From Candidatus Eiseniibacteriota bacterium (lineage in GTDB: Bacteria > Eisenbacteria > RBG-16-71-46), in NCBI GenBank assembly GCA_963717505.1, contig OY970342.1, positions 3,072,001-3,136,000 on the forward strand: a stretch of DNA of 64,000 bases. The letters are read 5' to 3'. Within the stretch, counting starts at the first letter, position 1; each line of letters begins with the position of its first letter. Made by a program: the position numbers and the translations under genes. A model generated the notes under the pieces. It made no database searches and was not told where the DNA came from. It worked only from the letters and a program-made list of their open reading frames with translations. Shown here one piece after another: positions 28,308 to 32,595 of the stretch.

Positions 28308-29251
28308 GCGACCGGAGCATCCTGGTGGTCGGGTCGGTCGCACTCGACTCGATTCGCACGCCGTTCGGCGCGGTCGAGGAGGCGCTCGGCGGCTCGGCGT
28401 CGTATTTCGCGGTCTCGGCCAGCCACTTCGCGCCGGTGCGGGTCATCGCCGTGGTCGGCGAGGATTTCCCCGACGAGCATCGCACGCTGTTCGCCGAGCG
28501 CGGCATCGACACCTCGGGACTCGAAGTCGCGGCCGGCCGTACGTTTCGCTGGCGGGGGGAGTACGCCGCCGAGCTGGGGCACGCGCACACGCTCGAGACC
28601 CAGCTCAACGTGTTCTCGGAGTTCCACCCGCAGCTCGAGGACCGCCATCGGCAGACGCCGTTCGTGTTCCTCGCGAACATCGACCCGGAGCTCCAGCTCG
28701 AAGTGCTCCGCCAGACGCGCGGCGCGCGTCTGACACTCTCGGACACCATGAACTACTGGATCGCGCGGCGACCCGATCGCGTGCTCGACGTACTCCGCGA
28801 AGTCGACATCGCGCTGTTCAACGAGGAAGAGGCGCGCTCGCTGGCCGGCGAGACCCAGATCGTGCGGGCGGCCGAGCGGCTGCTCGAGCAGGGAGCCCGC
28901 GCGGTGATCATCAAGAAGGGCGAGCACGGCGCGCTCTATCAATCACGTGAAGACCGGTTCATCACGCCGGCGTTTCCGGTCGGCAGCCTGGCGGATCCGA
29001 CCGGCGCCGGGGACTCCTTCGCCGGCGGCGTGCTCGGCTGGCTGGCGCGCACCGGTCGCCGCGACACCGCGACCATCCGGCAGGCCCTGGTCTGTGGTTC
29101 GGTCATGGCTTCGATCGCGATCGAGGGGTTCAGTCCACGCCCACTGGCCGAAGTTTCCCCCAGTGAAATCCGGGAACGGGTTCGGGGCCTCCACCGACTG
29201 GTTCACTTCGAGCTGCCCGAGGATCTGCCCGGATCTGATGCGCGACCTTAG
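28304..29251 (+). CDS. PfkB-family carbohydrate/nucleoside kinase
   Basis: VGSVALD, LGGSASY, NEEEA, DPTGAGDSFAGG. Confidence 0.92.
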   Translation: MSDRSILVVGSVALDSIRTPFGAVEEALGGSASYFAVSASHFAPVRVIAVVGEDFPDEHRTLFAERGIDTSGLEVAAGRTFRWRGEYAAELGHAHTLETQLNVFSEFHPQLEDRHRQTPFVFLANIDPELQLEVLRQTRGARLTLSDTMNYWIARRPDRVLDVLREVDIALFNEEEARSLAGETQIVRAAERLLEQGARAVIIKKGEHGALYQSREDRFITPAFPVGSLADPTGAGDSFAGGVLGWLARTGRRDTATIRQALVCGSVMASIAIEGFSPRPLAEVSPSEIRERVRGLHRLVHFELPEDLPGSDARP

Positions 29252-29269
29252 TGTTCCGGGCTAAAGTCA

Positions 29270-29278
29270 TGGTAGAGT
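29270..29278 (+). promoter_or_regulatory. Putative extended -10 promoter TGGTAGAGT for the 29319 gene
   Basis: TGn + TAGAGT in the intergenic gap; GGAGGAG RBS further downstream. Confidence 0.4.
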
Positions 29279-29318
29279 GTGACCTCGACGCCTCACCCCC
29301 CTGGAGGAGCCGCCTGAG

Positions 29319-30038
29319 ATGAGCAGCCCACGGGCACTCGACACCGCCCAAGTGGAAGAAGCCATTCGTCGACACGCCCGAGGTGTCGAAAGCGTGCGGG
29401 TCCAGGCCGAAGGCGAGGATCTGCGCGAGATCCATGTGATGCCGCGGCCGGGGTGGACTGCCAAGCAGATCGTGCGCGATATCAAGACCATCGTGCTCAA
29501 CAAGTTCGACAAGGCGATCGACCATCGCATCGTTTCGGTCGCCGACGCACCCGACGAGTGGCCCGGCGGTGAGGCCGAGCCGGCACCCAAACGCGGAGCG
29601 CCGCGGTCCGTCGACGCGCGTGTCCGATTCGGCAGCGTCAACGTCTATGTCACCGGCCGTCGAGCGCAGGCGCAGGTCGAAGTGCGCTGGAAGGGCGTGC
29701 CGCGCATGGGCAGCGCCTCCGGCTGGAGCAGCCGCGACGAAGCCCTCGATCTGGTGGTTCAGGCCACGCTTGCCACGATCCAGGAATTCCTGGACGATGG
29801 CATCGCCTTCGGGTTCGAGGGCGTCGAGGTGGTTCGAGTCGGACGCCGGGAGGTCGTGGTGGTCGGACTCGAGCTGTTGGCGTATCGTGCCCACAAGAGT
29901 CTGGTGGGTGCGTGCACGGTGGAAGCCGACGTGCAACAGGCGGCAGTGCTCGCCACCTTGTCGGCACTGAATCGTGTGCTGGGCGGACTGCCGACCCGCG
30001 AACCCACCGAATACGTTTTGAGGCCGACATCGTCCTGA
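29319..30038 (+). CDS. Hypothetical cytoplasmic two-domain protein; C-terminal part resembles the LeuA allosteric domain
   Basis: GGAGGAG RBS; N-domain EIHV...KQIVRDIKT...IDHRIVSV; C-end DVQQAAVLATLSALNRVL; fold call by eye. Confidence 0.75.
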   Translation: MSSPRALDTAQVEEAIRRHARGVESVRVQAEGEDLREIHVMPRPGWTAKQIVRDIKTIVLNKFDKAIDHRIVSVADAPDEWPGGEAEPAPKRGAPRSVDARVRFGSVNVYVTGRRAQAQVEVRWKGVPRMGSASGWSSRDEALDLVVQATLATIQEFLDDGIAFGFEGVEVVRVGRREVVVVGLELLAYRAHKSLVGACTVEADVQQAAVLATLSALNRVLGGLPTREPTEYVLRPTSS

Positions 30039-30090
30039 GGGAGGACAGCGAAGCGAAACTGGAGCGAAGCGTACCCACCTGAGGCAGCTC

Positions 30091-30132
30091 AAAAAAAAAC
30101 ACTCCGTCGGGGCAACCCGATCAAAGGAGGTG
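30091..30132 (-). terminator. Hairpin followed by T9 on the minus strand (possible intrinsic terminator of an antisense transcript)
   Basis: TCGGG-GCAA-CCCGA core (30107-30120) extended by CACTCC/GGAG(G)TG; A9 at 30091-30099. Confidence 0.45.
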
Positions 30133-30138
30133 GGTCGC

Positions 30139-30165
30139 GTGAAGATGGGTAAGGCTGGGTGGTAG
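30139..30165 (+). CDS. Putative 8-aa micropeptide MKMGKAGW
   Basis: AAAGGAGGTG (30123-30132), 6 nt spacer, GTG AAG ATG GGT AAG GCT GGG TGG TAG. Confidence 0.55.
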   Translation: MKMGKAGW

Positions 30166-30256
30166 ATTTCGCCCGCAGTACGTAGAACCTCCTGATTGTT
30201 CGGTGTCGGTCTCACCCAACGTGGCAATCCCGCAACCTGTCCCCCGGGTGACAACC

Positions 30257-31579
30257 ATGGTCGACGTCCCGCCGTTCGCCCACCCTCGGTGGTTCCGGGT
30301 CTACTTCTTCGCCGCACTGCTGACCGCACTCGCCGCCTTCGTCGCGACGCCGTCCGGTGCCCAGCCGCCACTCCTGATTCTCGGGGTCGTGGTCGGCCTG
30401 ATGCTGGCGCTCGAGCTGACGCCGATCGAGCTGCCCGGCGGCGGTTACGCGACCACCAGCGCGGTCGTCGACCTGCCGGCCATCGTGCTGATCGGACCGT
30501 TCTGGACCGCGGTGCTCGACGTGATCGCGATCGGCGTCGCCCAGGGGCTGGTGCGCCGGCGCGCGCCGATCAAGGTGATCCACAATGTCGCGGTCGCGAT
30601 CCTCACCGACCTGGCCGCCGGCTGGGCCTGGCACGCGGCCGGTGGCGCGACTTCGGGACGAGCGTTCGCCGAATGGATGGCGCCGTTGTTCGCGATGGGC
30701 TTCGCCTACTTCGCGGTCAACTCGACGCTGGCCGCGGTCGCGGTCGGCCTGACCCAGGGGCCGAACCCACTGCGGGTGTGGGAGCGGAGTTTCCTCGACG
30801 GCATCATCCACCACGTCTCGTTCCTGGCGCTCGGCATCCTGGCGACCATGACCTACCGGGTTGCGGGGGGGTGGGGACTCCTGTTCTTCGCGATTCCGTT
30901 CATGGTCGCGCGCCATTCGTTCCGGCTCTACGTGGAGATCCGCTCCGACTTGAAGGACTTCGTGCGCGCGCTCTCGGAGGTGCTCGAAGAGGTCGATCCC
31001 TACACCCGGCACCACTCGGCGCGAGTCTCCCAGTACGCCGTGCGCCTGTCCCGCGAACTGGGGCTCCCGGAACGCGAAGTCGAAGAGGTCGAATACGCGG
31101 CCCTGGTCCACGACCTGGGCAAGATCGGGCCGCAGCATCAGCACATCCTCCAGAAACCGGGCAGCCTGTCGCACGAGGAGCAGCGCACGCTGCGCTCGCA
31201 CCCGGCCGCTGGCGCCGAGATCGTGCGCAAGGTGCGGGCCCTCCGGCGGCCGGCCGAGATCATTCGCGCCCACCACGAGCGTCCGGACGGACAGGGCTAC
31301 CCGTTCGGACTGCAATCCGACGACGTTCCGATCGGCGCTCGCATCCTCAACGTTGCCGACGCGTTCGACGCGATGACCTCGGACCGGCCGTATCGCCGCG
31401 CATTGTCGGTGCGGGCGGCACTCGACGAACTCAGACGCGGCGCCGGCACCCAGTTCGACGATCAGGTGGTCGCCGCGCTGGTGCGGATGAACGAGCAGCA
31501 GCGCTTCCCGCTGTTGCCGAGTCCGAGCAGCGAGGACCTGCAGCAGCTGCGCATTCGCCCCCTGCGTCTGCGCGCGTGA
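30257..31579 (+). CDS. Membrane-bound HD-GYP cyclic-dinucleotide phosphodiesterase
   Basis: About 6-7 N-terminal TM segments; DPYTRHHSARV, VHDLGKIG, HHERPDGQGYP, VADAFDAMTSDRPYR, GTQFD; alternative GTG 30203. Confidence 0.92.
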   Translation: MVDVPPFAHPRWFRVYFFAALLTALAAFVATPSGAQPPLLILGVVVGLMLALELTPIELPGGGYATTSAVVDLPAIVLIGPFWTAVLDVIAIGVAQGLVRRRAPIKVIHNVAVAILTDLAAGWAWHAAGGATSGRAFAEWMAPLFAMGFAYFAVNSTLAAVAVGLTQGPNPLRVWERSFLDGIIHHVSFLALGILATMTYRVAGGWGLLFFAIPFMVARHSFRLYVEIRSDLKDFVRALSEVLEEVDPYTRHHSARVSQYAVRLSRELGLPEREVEEVEYAALVHDLGKIGPQHQHILQKPGSLSHEEQRTLRSHPAAGAEIVRKVRALRRPAEIIRAHHERPDGQGYPFGLQSDDVPIGARILNVADAFDAMTSDRPYRRALSVRAALDELRRGAGTQFDDQVVAALVRMNEQQRFPLLPSPSSEDLQQLRIRPLRLRA

Positions 31580-32595
31580 TGCGCTACCGCGACGCGGGGG
31601 TCGACCTCGACCGCGCCGACGCGATCAAGCATCGGCTGATCGAATCGGTGCGCTCGACCTGGGGTGCCAACGTGCGGCCGCTGGTCGGAGGGTTCGCCGG
31701 CGTCATGGAGTGGCCGGCGGGGCCGACGCTGATCGCGGCGACTATGGATGGGGTCGGGACCAAGCTGCACGTCGCGCTGGCCGCGGGTCGGGTCGGGGAT
31801 GCGGCCGCGGATCTCGTCTATCACGGCGCCAACGACCTGCTGGTCCACGGCGCCCGCCCGCTCGCCTTCCTCGACTACATCGCCCAGGCTCGGCTCGATC
31901 CGGAAGTGATCGCGGATGCCGTCGATGGGCTGGCGCGCGCGTGTCGCGAAGTGGGCGCGGTCCTGCTCGGGGGTGAGACGGCCGAGATGCCCGACACCTA
32001 TCTGCCGGGGGTCATCGACGTCGCCGGCTGCATGATCGGCACAACCGAAGACGCGCGACTGCTCGACGGCCGCCGTGTTCGCGACGGCGACGTGCTGCTC
32101 GGGATCGGCGCCGAGGGGTTGCACACCAACGGCTTCTCCTTGGCGCGGCGGGTGCTCGCGGAGTCGCGACTGGGACTCGAAGATCCTCTGCCCGGCGGCT
32201 CCGGATCGATCGCCGCAGCCTTGCTCGCACGGCATCGTCCATACGGCCGCTCGGTCCTGCCGCTGATCGAGCGGGGTCGGATCCGAGCCCTGGCGCACGT
32301 CACCGGGGGCGGCATCGCCGGAAACCTGGTGCGCGTGTTGCCCGAGGGACTCGGCGCCCGGATCGACGGCCGCGCCTGGCCGCGTCCGGCGCTCTTCCGA
32401 TGGTTGATCGAAGCCGGCGCGATCCCCGAGGACGACGCGCGCGCGAGCTTGAACCTCGGCATCGGACTGATCGCGGTCGTCGACCCCGAGGTCGCGACCG
32501 AGGTGAGTGAGGCGCTGGCCGCGGCCGGCGAGACCGTGCACGCGATCGGCGGCATCGCGGCCGGACCGCGACGGGTGGAGTGGATGGAGCCATGA
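31579..32595 (+). CDS. purM: AIR synthetase
   Basis: YRDAGVD, DGVGTK, FLDY, GGETAEMP, GLHTNGFSL, HVTGGG, NLGIG. Confidence 0.96.
   Translation: MRYRDAGVDLDRADAIKHRLIESVRSTWGANVRPLVGGFAGVMEWPAGPTLIAATMDGVGTKLHVALAAGRVGDAAADLVYHGANDLLVHGARPLAFLDYIAQARLDPEVIADAVDGLARACREVGAVLLGGETAEMPDTYLPGVIDVAGCMIGTTEDARLLDGRRVRDGDVLLGIGAEGLHTNGFSLARRVLAESRLGLEDPLPGGSGSIAAALLARHRPYGRSVLPLIERGRIRALAHVTGGGIAGNLVRVLPEGLGARIDGRAWPRPALFRWLIEAGAIPEDDARASLNLGIGLIAVVDPEVATEVSEALAAAGETVHAIGGIAAGPRRVEWMEP

What the first reader, a model, noticed from the sequence alone, without database searches (positions are those of the whole stretch)
29270..31579. Candidate undescribed signalling cassette: LeuA-allosteric-like protein + micropeptide + membrane HD-GYP
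Seen: between the housekeeping genes pfkB and purM lie three co-oriented elements behind a putative promoter: an unknown 239-aa soluble protein, an unannotated 8-codon ORF with the best ribosome-binding site I noticed in the window, and a multi-TM HD-GYP protein with intact HD and GYP motifs. Known: HD-GYP enzymes degrade c-di-GMP or related dinucleotides, and membrane N-domains usually sense ligands. Inference: a peptide-linked second-messenger system in which the peptide is the ligand or leader signal, the TM domain is the receptor, and the soluble protein is a binding, processing or effector partner.
Basis: partly seen in the sequence, partly recalled or inferred. Interest (0 to 1): 0.85.

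Follow-up and report, generated by a model that had tools for sequence, protein, structure and literature searches.

The report
Conserved micro-gene HD-GYP signalling cassette
An unannotated 8-codon gene and a folded RNA leader lie between an unnamed sensor-like protein and a membrane c-di-GMP phosphodiesterase, and the same arrangement recurs across many bacterial phyla, so it looks like an undescribed signalling unit.

Summary
Between pfkB and purM lie a 239-aa protein ("X239", 29319-30038), an 8-codon ORF (GTG 30139 to TAG 30165, MKMGKAGW) behind the window's only AAGGAGGTG, and an 8-TM HD-GYP protein (ATG 30257-31579).

X239 relatives sit directly upstream of a homologous TM-HD-GYP in 38 of 39 Eisenbacterial loci and 66 of 69 loci from other phyla. 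The gap holds a Shine-Dalgarno site plus a short ORF in 37 of 39 and 69 of 73.

The usual product is a ~25-aa hydrophobic micro-protein (MKKxxxxLxSLxxLxLAGGAxxxW). Here only its G-K-A-G-W tail remains, as in a second lineage with a synonymous change.

New here:
- A structured RNA leader, absent from Rfam, encloses the ORF. It has AGCGAAGCG boxes, an SD-sequestering helix and a long-range closing stem, supported by covariation.
- X239's C-domain has the LeuA/citramalate-synthase regulatory fold.
- The TM domain is MASE9-related and resembles ECF S-components.

Function is inferred, not shown. The most likely reading is a translation-gated micro-protein plus a soluble ligand sensor tuning c-di-GMP hydrolysis. 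The co-fold test could not be run. An earlier scan note (e1-927260) reported the same cassette on other DNA.

The parts
29319..30038 (+). X239: soluble two-domain protein. It has a ferredoxin-like N-domain (residues ~4-78), a disordered linker (79-97), and a LeuA/citramalate-synthase regulatory-type C-domain (100-222).
   Evidence: ORF. No Pfam or NCBIfam family above cut-off. AF2 model pLDDT 86. C-domain matches 3f6g at Z 10.7 and 3fig at Z 8.4; N-domain matches CDF C-terminal domains and similar at Z 7-8.6. Found in 39 of 41 related genomes and 80 of 101 genomes of the phylum.
30018..30032 (+). P1 5' arm (TTGAGGCCGACATCG). It lies inside the last codons of X239 and pairs with 30201-30215.
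   Evidence: 14 of 15 pairs. Present in the MFE fold. Compensatory changes in relatives. Cognate versus shuffled helix scores.
30047..30055 (+). Box A, AGCGAAGCG
   Evidence: Conserved block in 20 of 20 family loci.
30063..30071 (+). Box B, AGCGAAGCG, directly 5' of the P2 strand
   Evidence: A4 G5 C6 G7 A9 G10 are invariant in 64 of 64 aligned leaders from several phyla.
30073..30080 (+). P2 5' strand ACCCACCT (anti-SD)
   Evidence: Pairs with AGGTGGGT at 30128-30135. Present in the MFE fold. Covaries with the SD-proximal spacer in other phyla.
30060..30144 (+). Leader RNA core (box B, P2, P3 region, SD, start codon), as matched by covariance model R1
   Evidence: R1 was built only from 38 non-Eisenbacterial leaders. 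It gives a single hit in the 4.16-Mb genome, 27.2 bits, E 0.07. No Rfam family matches here.
30124..30135 (+). Shine-Dalgarno AAGGAGGTG plus the P2 3' strand
30139..30165 (+). Micro-ORF: GTG AAG ATG GGT AAG GCT GGG TGG TAG = MKMGKAGW. It is a shortened member of a micro-protein family.
   Evidence: The same 8 codons with one synonymous change occur in L120, whose X239 is 81% identical. Family tallies; codon-position entropies.
30201..30215 (+). P1 3' arm (CGGTGTCGGTCTCAC)
30257..31579 (+). MASE9-related 8-TM domain (residues ~11-220) fused to an HD-GYP phosphodiesterase domain (~227-423). The stop codon overlaps the purM start.
   Evidence: Pfam HD_5 E 2.5e-38. AF2 model pLDDT 87.9. PmGH 4mcw Z 26.1, and the TM domain versus the ECF S-component TmRibU Z 14.3. 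MASE9 hits 21 of 38 aligned relatives. hhalign to a MASE9 paralogue gives 96.7% probability.

Best explanation
This is one copy of a widespread, undescribed four-part c-di-GMP signalling cassette. The parts are:
(i) X239, a cytoplasmic protein whose C-domain has the amino-acid-binding regulatory fold of LeuA/citramalate synthase.
(ii) A structured mRNA leader.
(iii) A micro-protein gene enclosed by that leader.
(iv) A membrane HD-GYP phosphodiesterase with a MASE9-related TM sensor domain resembling ECF S-components.

Proposed working (inferred):
- The leader keeps the micro-ORF's ribosome-binding site paired (helix P2, next to the invariant AGCGAAGCG box) until a signal opens it. The signal could be a metabolite or a protein, with X239 the obvious candidate.
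- The micro-protein then associates with the TM domain of the HD-GYP enzyme and changes c-di-GMP hydrolysis.
- X239 adds a cytoplasmic small-molecule input, either on the RNA or on the enzyme.
- In most phyla the micro-protein is a ~25-aa single-helix peptide ending ...LAGGAxxxW. In this genome's lineage the helix has been lost, and only the basic G-K-A-G-W tail (probably cytoplasmic) is made. That tail is therefore likely the part that contacts the partner.

Shown: the parts, their conservation, the coding signature, the RNA helices and the folds.
Inferred: every interaction and the direction of regulation.
For: Linkage:
- pfkB-X239-HD-GYP order in 20 of 20 family loci.
- HD-GYP downstream in 38 of 39 Eisenbacterial loci (the other is cut by a contig end) and 66 of 69 loci from Bacillota, Chloroflexota, Sumerlaeota, Armatimonadota, Actinomycetota and others.

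Micro-ORF:
- Present in 37 of 39 and 69 of 73 loci. A 70th locus, L048, has its start masked by N.
- The SD-like pentamer lies 8-11 nt from the start codon in 95 of 108.
- In the L-x-L-A-G-G-A codons, positions 1/2/3 have entropy 0.69/0.15/1.68 bits across 48 distinct sequences.
- The peptides are hydrophobic, with net-positive N-termini in 61 of 70 non-Eisenbacterial copies.
- The 8-codon form recurs in L120 with a synonymous GGT>GGA change.

RNA:
- P1 cognate helix score has median 31, against 18 for shuffled sequence (95th percentile 23). 95 of 108 loci lie above that percentile.
- For P2+P3 on 38 leaders, 87.2% of cells are paired against 29-50% for slid controls. The covariation score is 0.424 against 0.07-0.11, and 0 of 500 shuffles reach it.
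- Model R1, built without any Eisenbacterial sequence, finds 33 of 39 Eisenbacterial leaders and 20 of 20 further leaders. Each is a single hit at the expected place. It finds 0 of 3 in loci lacking the HD-GYP.
- R1 gives one hit in the whole genome.
- The window leader folds at -84.5 kcal/mol, z -3.38.
- Leader and micro-ORF were seen only where X239 and HD-GYP are adjacent. They are absent in the variant loci L023, L078, L095, L099 and L124-L130, where the best score is 12.7 bits.

Folds. MASE9 relation.

Galperin & Chou (bioRxiv 10.1101/2021.11.05.467447, section 12 read) argue that MASE9 binds its ligand within the membrane.

Weak hint of an abundant RNA: the only piece of 29270-31579 found in two metatranscriptome contig sets is one identical 324-nt contig, 29966-30289, spanning the leader.
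Against: - No interaction was tested. The co-fold job was never accepted and there are no assays.
- The window's 8-residue peptide cannot span a membrane, so a membrane-partner role cannot apply unchanged here.
- X239 and the HD-GYP are separable. In family f10, 20 of 20 sampled genomes have the HD-GYP N-domain and 0 of 20 have X239. In family f15, 6 of 6 have X239 and 0 of 6 have the N-domain by this query. Loci L124-L130 show the one-gene versions in the same slot.
- L023 keeps both genes without leader or micro-ORF.
- Only 45 of 70 non-Eisenbacterial peptides have Trp in the last five residues, so the tail is not universally conserved.
- By the simple ungapped score, P2 exceeds the 95th percentile of shuffles in only 30 of 108 loci. 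Its best partner adjoins a box in 55 of 108.
- X239's N-domain fold is a common ferredoxin-like arrangement with no specific RNA-binding signature.
- The RNA-library contigs may be one data set filed twice, may contain DNA, and no silent control stretch was laid.
Confidence: 0.5

Rival explanations
1. Regulatory leader peptide. The micro-ORF matters only in cis. Its translation, or a nascent-chain arrest at the conserved C-terminal residues, remodels the leader and the long-range stem P1 and so sets expression of the downstream HD-GYP. The released peptide has no function.
For: - The most conserved residues are the C-terminal ~12 (LxLAGGAxxxW; G-K/R-A-G-W-stop), and the N-terminus can shrink to 3 residues.
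- The ORF sits inside a helix-rich leader. The P1 3' arm ends about 7-47 nt before the HD-GYP start in most non-Eisenbacterial loci.
- A recalled resemblance of G-[KR]-A-G to the SecM arrest motif G-I-R-A-G-P. This comes from memory, not from a call.
Against: - The hydrophobic, N-terminally basic character of the N-terminal half is kept across phyla. An arrest peptide would not need this.
- The distance from the stop codon to the P1 3' arm varies from 5 to about 90 nt, so a terminating ribosome cannot always melt it.
- The HD-GYP's own SD lies outside P1.
- One Eisenbacterial family carries 2-3 in-frame internal copies of D-G-K-[AG]-G-W followed by Asp rather than a stop.
- A 16-25-aa chain would still be inside the exit tunnel at termination.
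Confidence: 0.2
2. One reading: an exported peptide signal. The N-terminal MKK-hydrophobic-AGGA part is a signal peptide, and the few C-terminal residues are released outside and sensed by the TM domain, as in a quorum-sensing circuit. The gene order recalls ComQ-ComX-ComP (recalled).
For: - The peptide resembles a signal sequence. The N-terminal Phr signal-region model TIGR04429 scores 17.0 and 15.5 bits on 2 of 7 peptides tested, below its cut-off of 25.
- A TM sensor gene lies directly downstream.
Against: - The core is highly conserved across phyla and single-copy in a fixed slot, unlike diversifying pheromones.
- After an AGGA cut only 3-5 residues would remain.
- Eisenbacterial copies have acidic N-termini (23 of 38) and basic C-termini (33 of 38), and the window's copy has no hydrophobic segment at all, so export is implausible here.
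- No exporter or processing gene is conserved alongside.
Confidence: 0.08
3. X239 and the HD-GYP are only neighbours by descent, and the leader plus micro-ORF is an independent small gene with no role in c-di-GMP signalling. It could be, for example, a type-I-toxin-like or membrane-stress peptide.
For: - Each large gene can exist alone in the same slot.
- The RNA architecture recalls type I toxin mRNAs such as hok or aapA1 (recalled). It has an SD-sequestering helix plus a long-distance 5'-3' pairing around a small hydrophobic ORF.
Against: - The gene order is kept across at least six phyla whose flanking genes otherwise differ. This goes beyond inheritance within one lineage.
- Leader and micro-ORF were found only between X239 and HD-GYP, once per genome.
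- Type I toxins are sporadic and often multi-copy.
- The 8-residue form here cannot be a membrane toxin.
Confidence: 0.07
4. The micro-ORF is a precursor of a modified peptide or cofactor (RiPP-like). The K-x-G-W tail would be the core, repeated 2-3 times in some genomes, and X239 would be the recognition or processing protein.
For: - In-frame repeats of D-G-K-[AG]-G-W occur in four named loci (L028, L030, L031, L033).
- The Lys/Trp spacing is conserved. Lys-Trp cross-linked RiPPs exist (recalled).
- X239 relatives lie next to a B12-radical-SAM gene in L078 and L095.
Against: - No radical-SAM, protease or other modifying enzyme is conserved in the cassette.
- X239 has a ligand-binding regulatory fold, not an enzyme fold.
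- The L078 and L095 loci have no micro-ORF or leader.
- Outside Eisenbacteria the tail is variable.
Confidence: 0.05

Closest known systems
MASE9-HD-GYP phosphodiesterases (T. maritima TM1467, S. venezuelae HdgA; Galperin & Chou, bioRxiv 10.1101/2021.11.05.467447, passages and section 12 read)
   Same: An integral-membrane domain of about eight TM segments is fused to a complete HD-GYP domain. 21 of 38 aligned relatives match Pfam MASE9, and the family profile aligns to a MASE9 paralogue at 96.7% probability. The catalytic domain superposes on PmGH at Z 26.1.
   Different: The window's own protein does not reach Pfam's MASE9 model. The parts of that paper and of PMC6205966 that I read do not mention an accessory protein, a micro-ORF or an RNA leader. 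The supplements of the preprint are closed and could bear on this.
Regulatory (allosteric/dimerisation) domain of 2-isopropylmalate synthase LeuA and citramalate synthase (Pfam PF08502; PDB 3fig, 3f6g)
   Same: The beta-beta-beta-alpha x2 fold of X239 residues 100-222. Z 10.7 over 108 residues to LiCMS and Z 8.4 over 105 residues to M. tuberculosis LeuA. Foldseek E 1e-5.
   Different: X239 is a stand-alone protein with a ferredoxin-like N-domain, and no catalytic barrel is attached. No longer fused forms were found, which is weak evidence. The sequence score is below Pfam's cut-off. The ligand is unknown.
Small membrane proteins that tune membrane sensors (MgrB-PhoQ, SafA-PhoQ: recalled; DbfQ-DbfRS: abstract seen in the listing)
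   Same: A very small, often unannotated gene is encoded beside a membrane sensor and is proposed to act on it.
   Different: Here the output is an HD-GYP phosphodiesterase. The peptide's translation is gated by a conserved structured leader, a third soluble protein is part of the unit, and binding is untested.
ECF-transporter S-components and their small partners (RibU, FolT, BioY, ThiT, CbiM/NikM; the CbiN partner is recalled)
   Same: The TM domain, residues 35-205, superposes on TmRibU at Z 14.3 over 160 of 171 residues. It matches a NikM-type protein at Z 13.8 and FolT, BioY and ThiT at Z 11-13.
   Different: Sequence identity is only 9-17%. The tool warns that Z near 13 for helical bundles may reflect a common arrangement. 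No ECF energising genes lie nearby. This is a lead for an in-membrane ligand pocket, not a membership claim.
SD-sequestering leaders and riboswitches; mRNAs of type I toxins with a long-distance 5'-3' interaction (recalled)
   Same: An anti-SD strand pairs with the SD-to-start spacer, and a long-range stem closes the unit.
   Different: No Rfam family matches. The invariant AGCGAAGCG boxes have no known ligand or binding protein. The element occupies a fixed syntenic position between two signalling genes.

Membership tests
HD-GYP domain (Pfam HD_5, PF13487) | Profile score above the curated cut-off | tested here: met
   131.9 bits against 27.2, E 2.5e-38.
HD-GYP domain (Pfam HD_5, PF13487) | HD dyad and HHExxDGxGYP motif intact | tested here: met
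   ...ALVHDLGK... and ...AHHERPDGQGYP... are present. H285 D286 H339 H340 E341 G345 G347 Y348 P349 are invariant in 35 aligned relatives.
HD-GYP domain (Pfam HD_5, PF13487) | Fold of solved HD-GYP enzymes | tested here: met
   4mcw Z 26.1, rmsd 1.9 over 194 residues, 35% identity. 9rbz Z 25.6. 4r8z Z 24.5.
HD-GYP domain (Pfam HD_5, PF13487) | Hydrolysis of c-di-GMP (or cGAMP) | not testable with these tools
   Needs an enzyme assay.
MASE9 membrane sensor domain (PF20972) | Profile match of this protein's N-terminal domain | tested here: inconclusive
   No hit on the window's protein at E <= 0.1. The own-genome scan hits only two other places. However, 21 of 38 aligned relatives match (best E 1.7e-11), and hhalign of the family profile to an own-genome MASE9 segment gives 96.7% probability, E 4.6e-10, over 119 columns.
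MASE9 membrane sensor domain (PF20972) | About eight TM segments N-terminal to the output domain | tested here: met
   Eight hydrophobic 17-mers between residues 15 and 218. Helices in the AF2 model.
LeuA_dimer regulatory domain (PF08502) | Profile score above the curated cut-off | tested here: not met
   14.6 bits against 24.9. 2 of 20 distant relatives give sub-threshold hits and 18 give none.
LeuA_dimer regulatory domain (PF08502) | beta-beta-beta-alpha x2 regulatory fold | tested here: met
   3f6g Z 10.7 and 3fig Z 8.4. Foldseek probability 1.00.
LeuA_dimer regulatory domain (PF08502) | Attached to a synthase catalytic domain and binding Leu/Ile | tested here: not met
   The protein stands alone at 239 aa, and no longer relatives were found (weak). 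Ligand binding is not testable here.
Any Rfam RNA family | Covariance-model match of the leader | tested here: not met
   Window 28800-31000 at E <= 10 gives only chance-level matches far below gathering scores. Twelve related loci at gathering threshold give no hit in the gap.
Type I toxin-antitoxin | Small hydrophobic toxin ORF in a self-sequestering mRNA | tested here: inconclusive
   The architecture is similar. The canonical peptide is hydrophobic. The window's 8-aa product is not.
Type I toxin-antitoxin | Sporadic, often multi-copy distribution independent of neighbouring genes | tested here: not met
   One copy per genome, always between X239 and HD-GYP.
Ribosome-arrest / attenuation leader peptides | Stalled ribosome position overlaps a helix that controls the downstream RBS | tested here: inconclusive
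   The spacing from the stop codon to P1 varies from 5 to about 90 nt, and the HD-GYP SD lies outside P1. Stalling itself is not testable.
Phr-type exported signalling peptide precursors (TIGR04429) | Profile score above cut-off | tested here: not met
   Best 17.0 bits against 25. 2 of 7 peptides gave any match.

The most novel reading that the evidence does not exclude
The cassette is a new kind of second-messenger control. A ribosomally made micro-protein, whose translation is switched by a previously unknown RNA element (a riboswitch or an X239-bound leader carrying AGCGAAGCG boxes), is the physical coupler between a soluble amino-acid-type sensor (X239) and an S-component-like membrane domain of an HD-GYP enzyme. 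Its G-K/R-A-G-W tail would act as an intracellular peptide ligand. The 8-residue version in this genome would then be one of the shortest functional bacterial gene products with a dedicated regulatory RNA.
Probability: 0.2. Interest if true: 0.88.

Novelty: new variant of a known kind. Interest (0 to 1): 0.72.

Why it matters
HD-GYP enzymes are the main c-di-GMP hydrolases in clostridia and many environmental phyla (Galperin & Chou preprint, abstract and passages read). The signals sensed by their membrane domains are unknown. The only studied MASE9 protein gave no phenotype (PMC6205966, passages read).

This cassette supplies three concrete, testable handles for one large subfamily:
- an unannotated micro-protein
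- a soluble protein with an amino-acid-type regulatory fold
- a conserved structured RNA that is not in Rfam

It occurs in at least 593 genome records in one capped scan, and the profile search found 2682 protein clusters for X239.

It also adds a well-supported case to two open topics. One is how many very small genes are missed by annotation. The other is whether peptides can serve as in-cell regulators of second-messenger enzymes.

Tried and rejected
- **Co-fold of peptide with TM domain.** I prepared the L071 34-aa peptide alignment A7 with residues 1-240 of alignment A6. The job was never accepted: the queue was full or the machine gave no usable answer. No binding result exists in either direction.
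- **RNAalifold on the mixed 64-sequence alignment A4** predicted no pairs. The cause was misalignment between phyla. The 38-sequence alignment A5 gave P3, and P2 was then set by hand and counted.
A narrower alignment, A3, was used instead.
- **The metagenome scan** returned a single locus, L120.
- **Phylum-wide covariance-model scan.** It found 16 of 101 genomes, each with one hit. All 8 hits I could compare with X239 positions lie directly beside X239. The stricter filters missed even the window's own genome, so the scan says little about distribution.
- **Longer fused forms of X239:** none found, which is weak evidence.
- **Peptide families in Pfam and NCBIfam:** nothing above cut-off.
- **ESM Atlas:** only unnamed clusters, or clusters auto-named for LeuA_dimer.
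- **Literature.** Six searches found no description of the cassette.
  - 'MASE9' occurs in 2 held papers, one of them irrelevant.
  - 'DUF5317' occurs in none.
  - PMC9017333 is not held, so its preprint was read instead.
  - PMC13724677 (passages read) describes a different family of ~8-kDa small proteins.
- **RNA-library contigs** cover only 29966-30289. The uncovered parts prove nothing.
- **A sigma-70 promoter before X239:** none found by the scan.
- **X239 N-domain as a double-stranded-RNA-binding domain.** The Foldseek hits to such domains had rmsd 13-25 A. The wide search instead gave common ferredoxin-like folds. I dropped the idea.

Full report
**What is in the window**

The stretch 29270-31579 holds, on the + strand, three elements:
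- an ORF of 239 aa (29319-30038, here called X239)
- a 218-nt gap
- an ORF with an HD-GYP domain that ends at 31579, where its TGA overlaps the ATG of purM

pfkB ends at 29251. Pfam confirms PfkB, HD_5 (131.9 bits, E 2.5e-38) and AIRS/AIRS_C for the neighbours. For X239 it gives only sub-threshold hits: FGAR-AT_N at 16.8 bits and LeuA_dimer at 14.6 bits against a cut-off of 24.9. NCBIfam has nothing for X239.

The micro-ORF reads GTG AAG ATG GGT AAG GCT GGG TGG TAG at 30139-30165. AAGGAGGTG at 30124-30132 is the only copy of that 9-mer in the window. By itself this is not significant, since 18 of 100 shuffles contain one.

The HD-GYP frame is open from GTG 30203, but relatives align only from about residue 24-31. 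I therefore take ATG 30257 as the start, giving 440 aa. This product has eight hydrophobic segments between residues 15 and 218 and intact HD and HHERPDGQGYP motifs.

X239 has a match in 39 of 41 related genomes. The two misses are 82% and 81% complete. It also matches 80 of 101 genomes sampled from the phylum, and source names point to Candidatus Eisenbacteria.

In 20 of 20 family-level loci the order is pfkB-X239-HD-GYP. In 19 further loci from the order and class the same order holds, with purM behind.

A profile of X239 finds 2682 cluster representatives at E <= 0.001 in 1.84 billion proteins. One of them is a 213-aa hypothetical protein of Alkaliphilus metalliredigens.

593 of them encode a relative, and the best 80 loci were kept. 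By their record titles they come from Bacillota (mostly Clostridia), Chloroflexota, Sumerlaeota, Armatimonadota, Actinomycetota, Zixibacteria and Gemmatimonadota.

Of the 69 loci with at least 1000 nt downstream, 66 carry a homologue of the window's TM-HD-GYP starting within 900 nt. The three exceptions are L078 and L095, which have a B12-radical-SAM gene instead, and L099.

Genes further out differ between lineages. The pairing is therefore not just inherited synteny.

**The micro-ORF is a real, conserved gene**

In the alignment of the 20 family gaps, every locus has AAGGAGGTGGG, a GTG or ATG start, and a short frame ending ...G-[KR]-A-G-W-stop. The usual length is 16-17 codons, for example MDLILELVTFFGRAGW.

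Across all loci, the script found an SD-preceded short ORF in:
- 37 of 39 Eisenbacterial loci. L035 is cut by a contig end and L023 has none.
- 69 of 73 other loci with at least 300 nt downstream. A 70th, L048, has its start masked by N but reads ...LSLILTVGAGYTWR-stop.

Outside Eisenbacteria the product is about 25 aa with the consensus MKKxxxxLxSLxxLxLAGGAxxxWx.

Three observations argue for selection on the protein rather than the RNA:
1. In the seven codons L-x-L-A-G-G-A, the entropy at codon positions 1, 2 and 3 is 0.69, 0.15 and 1.68 bits. This was measured on 48 distinct sequences from the 56 peptides that match the motif out of 70, so the selection is partly circular.
2. Length differences are in whole codons, and one Eisenbacterial family repeats D-G-K-[AG]-G-W two or three times in frame (L028, L030, L031, L033).
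3. The SD-like pentamer ends 8-11 nt before the start in 95 of 108 copies.

The window's 8-codon form is an internally shortened member. The only close relative recovered from metagenomes, L120 (X239 81% identical), has the same eight codons with one synonymous change, plus compensating differences in the flanking stem. The short form has therefore been kept in at least two lineages.

No Pfam or NCBIfam family covers the peptides.

Four features recur:
- **P1** is a long-range stem. Its 5' arm lies at or just after the X239 stop (30018-30032 in the window, inside the last codons). Its 3' arm lies downstream of the micro-ORF (30201-30215).
  - The arms differ widely in sequence between lineages but stay complementary.
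  - The best cognate helix score has median 31. Shuffled 3' regions give 18 (95th percentile 23) and non-cognate pairs give 19 (95th percentile 29).
  - 95 of 108 loci exceed the shuffled percentile and 64 of 108 exceed the non-cognate one.
  - Several of the 13 low-scoring loci have insertions that put the arm outside my search window.
- **Boxes.** One or more AGCGRAGCG boxes are present (30047-30055 and 30063-30071 here). Six positions are invariant in 64 of 64 aligned leaders.
- **P2.** The strand directly 3' of the box pairs with the 3' half of the SD and the spacer before the start codon. Examples are ACCCACCT/AGGTGGGT here, GATATAGCCT/GGGCTATATC in many Clostridia, and GCGGTAAA/TTTACCGC in Desulfosporosinus.
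- **P3** is a hairpin inside P2, often with a second AGCGRA in its loop.

On 38 non-Eisenbacterial leaders, P2+P3 have 87.2% of cells paired, against 29-50% when the partners are slid. The covariation score is 0.424 against 0.07-0.11, 10 of 12 pairs have changes on both sides, and 0 of 500 shuffles reach the observed values.

The cruder ungapped P2 score is less impressive. Only 30 of 108 loci lie above the shuffled 95th percentile, and the best partner adjoins a box in 55 of 108.

A covariance model built only from those 38 sequences then found the leader as follows:

| Set searched | Leaders found |
|---|---|
| Eisenbacterial sources | 33 of 39 |
| Further non-Eisenbacterial sources not used in the model | 20 of 20 |
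| Loci lacking the HD-GYP | 0 of 3 |
| Window's 4.16-Mb genome | 1 hit (window 30060-30144, 27.2 bits, E 0.07) |

Each locus hit was single and in the expected place.

The window's leader folds at -84.5 kcal/mol with z -3.38, and the fold contains P1 and P2. Rfam has no family for it.

**Natural variants**

Within the phylum, the pfkB..purM slot occurs in four versions:
- the full cassette
- X239 plus HD-GYP without leader or micro-ORF (L023)
- HD-GYP alone (family f10: N-domain in 20 of 20 sampled genomes, X239 in 0 of 20; loci L124-L126)
- X239 alone (family f15: X239 in 6 of 6, N-domain in 0 of 6 by this query; loci L127-L130)

With filters off, the RNA model finds nothing above 12.7 bits in any of these variant loci.

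Two conclusions follow. The two large proteins do not strictly need each other. And the leader plus micro-ORF was seen only where both are adjacent, which fits a role in connecting them.

**What the proteins look like**

X239 (AF2 model, pLDDT 86) has three regions:
- An alpha-beta-beta-alpha-beta N-domain (residues 4-78). It resembles CDF-transporter C-terminal domains, BolA and similar ferredoxin-like modules at Z 7-8.6. This range is common for unrelated matches.
- A disordered linker.
- A C-domain (100-222) that matches the isoleucine-binding regulatory domain of Leptospira citramalate synthase (3f6g, Z 10.7, rmsd 2.7 over 108 residues, 21% identity) and that of M. tuberculosis LeuA (Z 8.4).

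The HD-GYP protein (pLDDT 87.9) superposes on three solved HD-GYP enzymes over residues ~220-425: PmGH (4mcw, Z 26.1, 35% identity), c-di-GMP-bound DvhD (Z 25.6) and PA4781 (Z 24.5).

Its TM domain (35-205) superposes on ECF-transporter S-components. TmRibU gives Z 14.3 over 160 of 171 residues, a NikM-type protein gives 13.8, and FolT, BioY and ThiT give 11-13, at 9-17% identity. The tool warns that Z near 13 is not decisive for helical bundles, so I treat this as a lead for an in-membrane ligand pocket.

By sequence the TM domain is MASE9-related:
- 21 of 38 aligned relatives hit PF20972.
- The family profile aligns to a MASE9 paralogue of the same genome at 96.7% probability.
- The window's own protein does not reach the Pfam model.

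Galperin & Chou (preprint, section 12 read) defined MASE9 from T. maritima TM1467 and proposed ligand binding within the membrane.

**How it most likely works**

The shown facts are the four parts, their co-occurrence, the coding signature, the helices and the folds.

The inference is as follows. P2 keeps the micro-ORF untranslated until a signal acting at the invariant boxes opens it. The micro-protein then joins the TM domain and alters phosphodiesterase activity. X239 contributes a cytoplasmic small-molecule input, on the RNA or on the enzyme.

The canonical peptide has the marks of a membrane helix:
- a basic N-terminus in 61 of 70 copies
- about 17 hydrophobic residues
- a small-residue AGGA patch
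- an interfacial Trp

Eisenbacterial copies instead have acidic N-termini (23 of 38) and basic tails (33 of 38), and they end in Trp (37 of 38). By the positive-inside rule (recalled), the tail would face the cytoplasm. That would allow the helix-less MKMGKAGW of this genome to act there.

I give this model 0.5.

The main rival (0.2) is a purely cis-acting leader peptide. It is favoured by the C-terminal conservation. It is disfavoured by the conserved hydrophobicity, the variable stop-to-P1 spacing and the internal repeats. The exported-pheromone, unrelated-small-gene and RiPP-precursor readings are each below 0.1, for the reasons given under the rivals.

**Expression hint**

Two metatranscriptome contig sets (X5, X6) each hold one identical 324-nt contig covering 29966-30289, which is the leader and micro-ORF, and nothing else of the 2310-nt stretch. 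The two sets may be one data set filed twice, contigs do not measure abundance, DNA carry-over is possible, and I laid no control stretch. This is a weak hint of an abundant, stable RNA.

**Novelty**

In the held literature I found no description. 'MASE9' occurs only in the Galperin & Chou preprint and one irrelevant paper. 'DUF5317' occurs nowhere. Searches combining HD-GYP with small proteins, leader peptides or HdgA gave nothing relevant. The Streptomyces study of hdgA/hdgB (PMC6205966, passages read) does not mention accessory genes in what I read. Supplements of the preprint are closed and might bear on this.

The enzyme is a new member of a known kind. The accessory protein family, the micro-protein family and the RNA motif appear undescribed.

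**Dependence on the unpublished genome**

Genome G026 (locus L027) is unpublished. It contributes one locus to the counts and one genome to those. No claim depends on it alone.

Noticed in passing
L028, L030, L031, L033 (Eisenbacterial family f3), between X239 and HD-GYP: The micro-ORF is 45-50 codons long. It carries two or three in-frame repeats of D-G-K-[AG]-G-W separated by acidic linkers behind a hydrophobic N-terminus. This looks like a multi-copy precursor or a multivalent tail.
   Followed up: partly
L124-L126 (family f10), L127-L130 (family f15), L023 (family f4): The same pfkB..purM slot exists as HD-GYP only, as X239 only, and as X239+HD-GYP without leader or micro-ORF. These are natural deletion variants that could guide experiments.
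   Followed up: yes
L041, L044, L059, L062, L098 and others, directly after the HD-GYP gene: A DUF5317 (PF17248) membrane protein follows the HD-GYP in 45 of 63 non-Eisenbacterial loci. It was not found in the window's genome. MASE9 and DUF5317 ring in the same 2 of 14 control genomes, Thermus thermophilus and Thermotoga maritima. It may be a fifth cassette member.
   Followed up: partly
L044:1220-1464 and 1672-1757; L044:3279-3806: In Geosporobacter, a raiA RNA and a c-di-GMP-I riboswitch lie about 2-3 kb upstream of the cassette. A hibernation-promoting-factor gene lies directly upstream of X239. HPF is upstream in 12 of 66 loci.
   Followed up: no
L080, L090, L104, L107, L111: A second, tandem TM-HD-GYP paralogue follows the first. 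This recalls the hdgA-hdgB pair described in Streptomyces (PMC6205966, passages read).
   Followed up: no
L078:4780-6465, L095:5148-6746: In two MAGs, labelled Zixibacteria and Gemmatimonadota, the X239 relative is followed by a B12-binding radical-SAM protein instead of an HD-GYP. There is no leader or micro-ORF.
   Followed up: partly
window 30299-30910 (HD-GYP residues 15-218): The MASE9-related TM domain superposes on vitamin- and metal-binding S-components of ECF transporters (TmRibU Z 14.3). I saw no such link in the parts of the MASE9 description that I read.
   Followed up: partly
window 31577-31581: The HD-GYP stop codon and the purM start codon overlap (TGATG). This suggests translational coupling of a signalling gene to a purine-biosynthesis gene.
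   Followed up: no
L003, L018 and proteins such as P0008, P0019, P0038: In some relatives the X239 stop codon is replaced by CAG. The frame then runs on through the first conserved RNA block, adding ...QEASGAKR to the protein.
   Followed up: no
G000:C1:3674591-3675055 (L122) and 3781217-3781687 (L123), outside the window: Two further MASE9-type domains occur elsewhere in the same genome. Neither has an X239 copy or the leader: one search gives one X239 match and one leader match in the genome.
   Followed up: no
window 29966-30289: This is the only part of the finding recovered from two metatranscriptome contig sets, as an identical 324-nt contig.
   Followed up: partly
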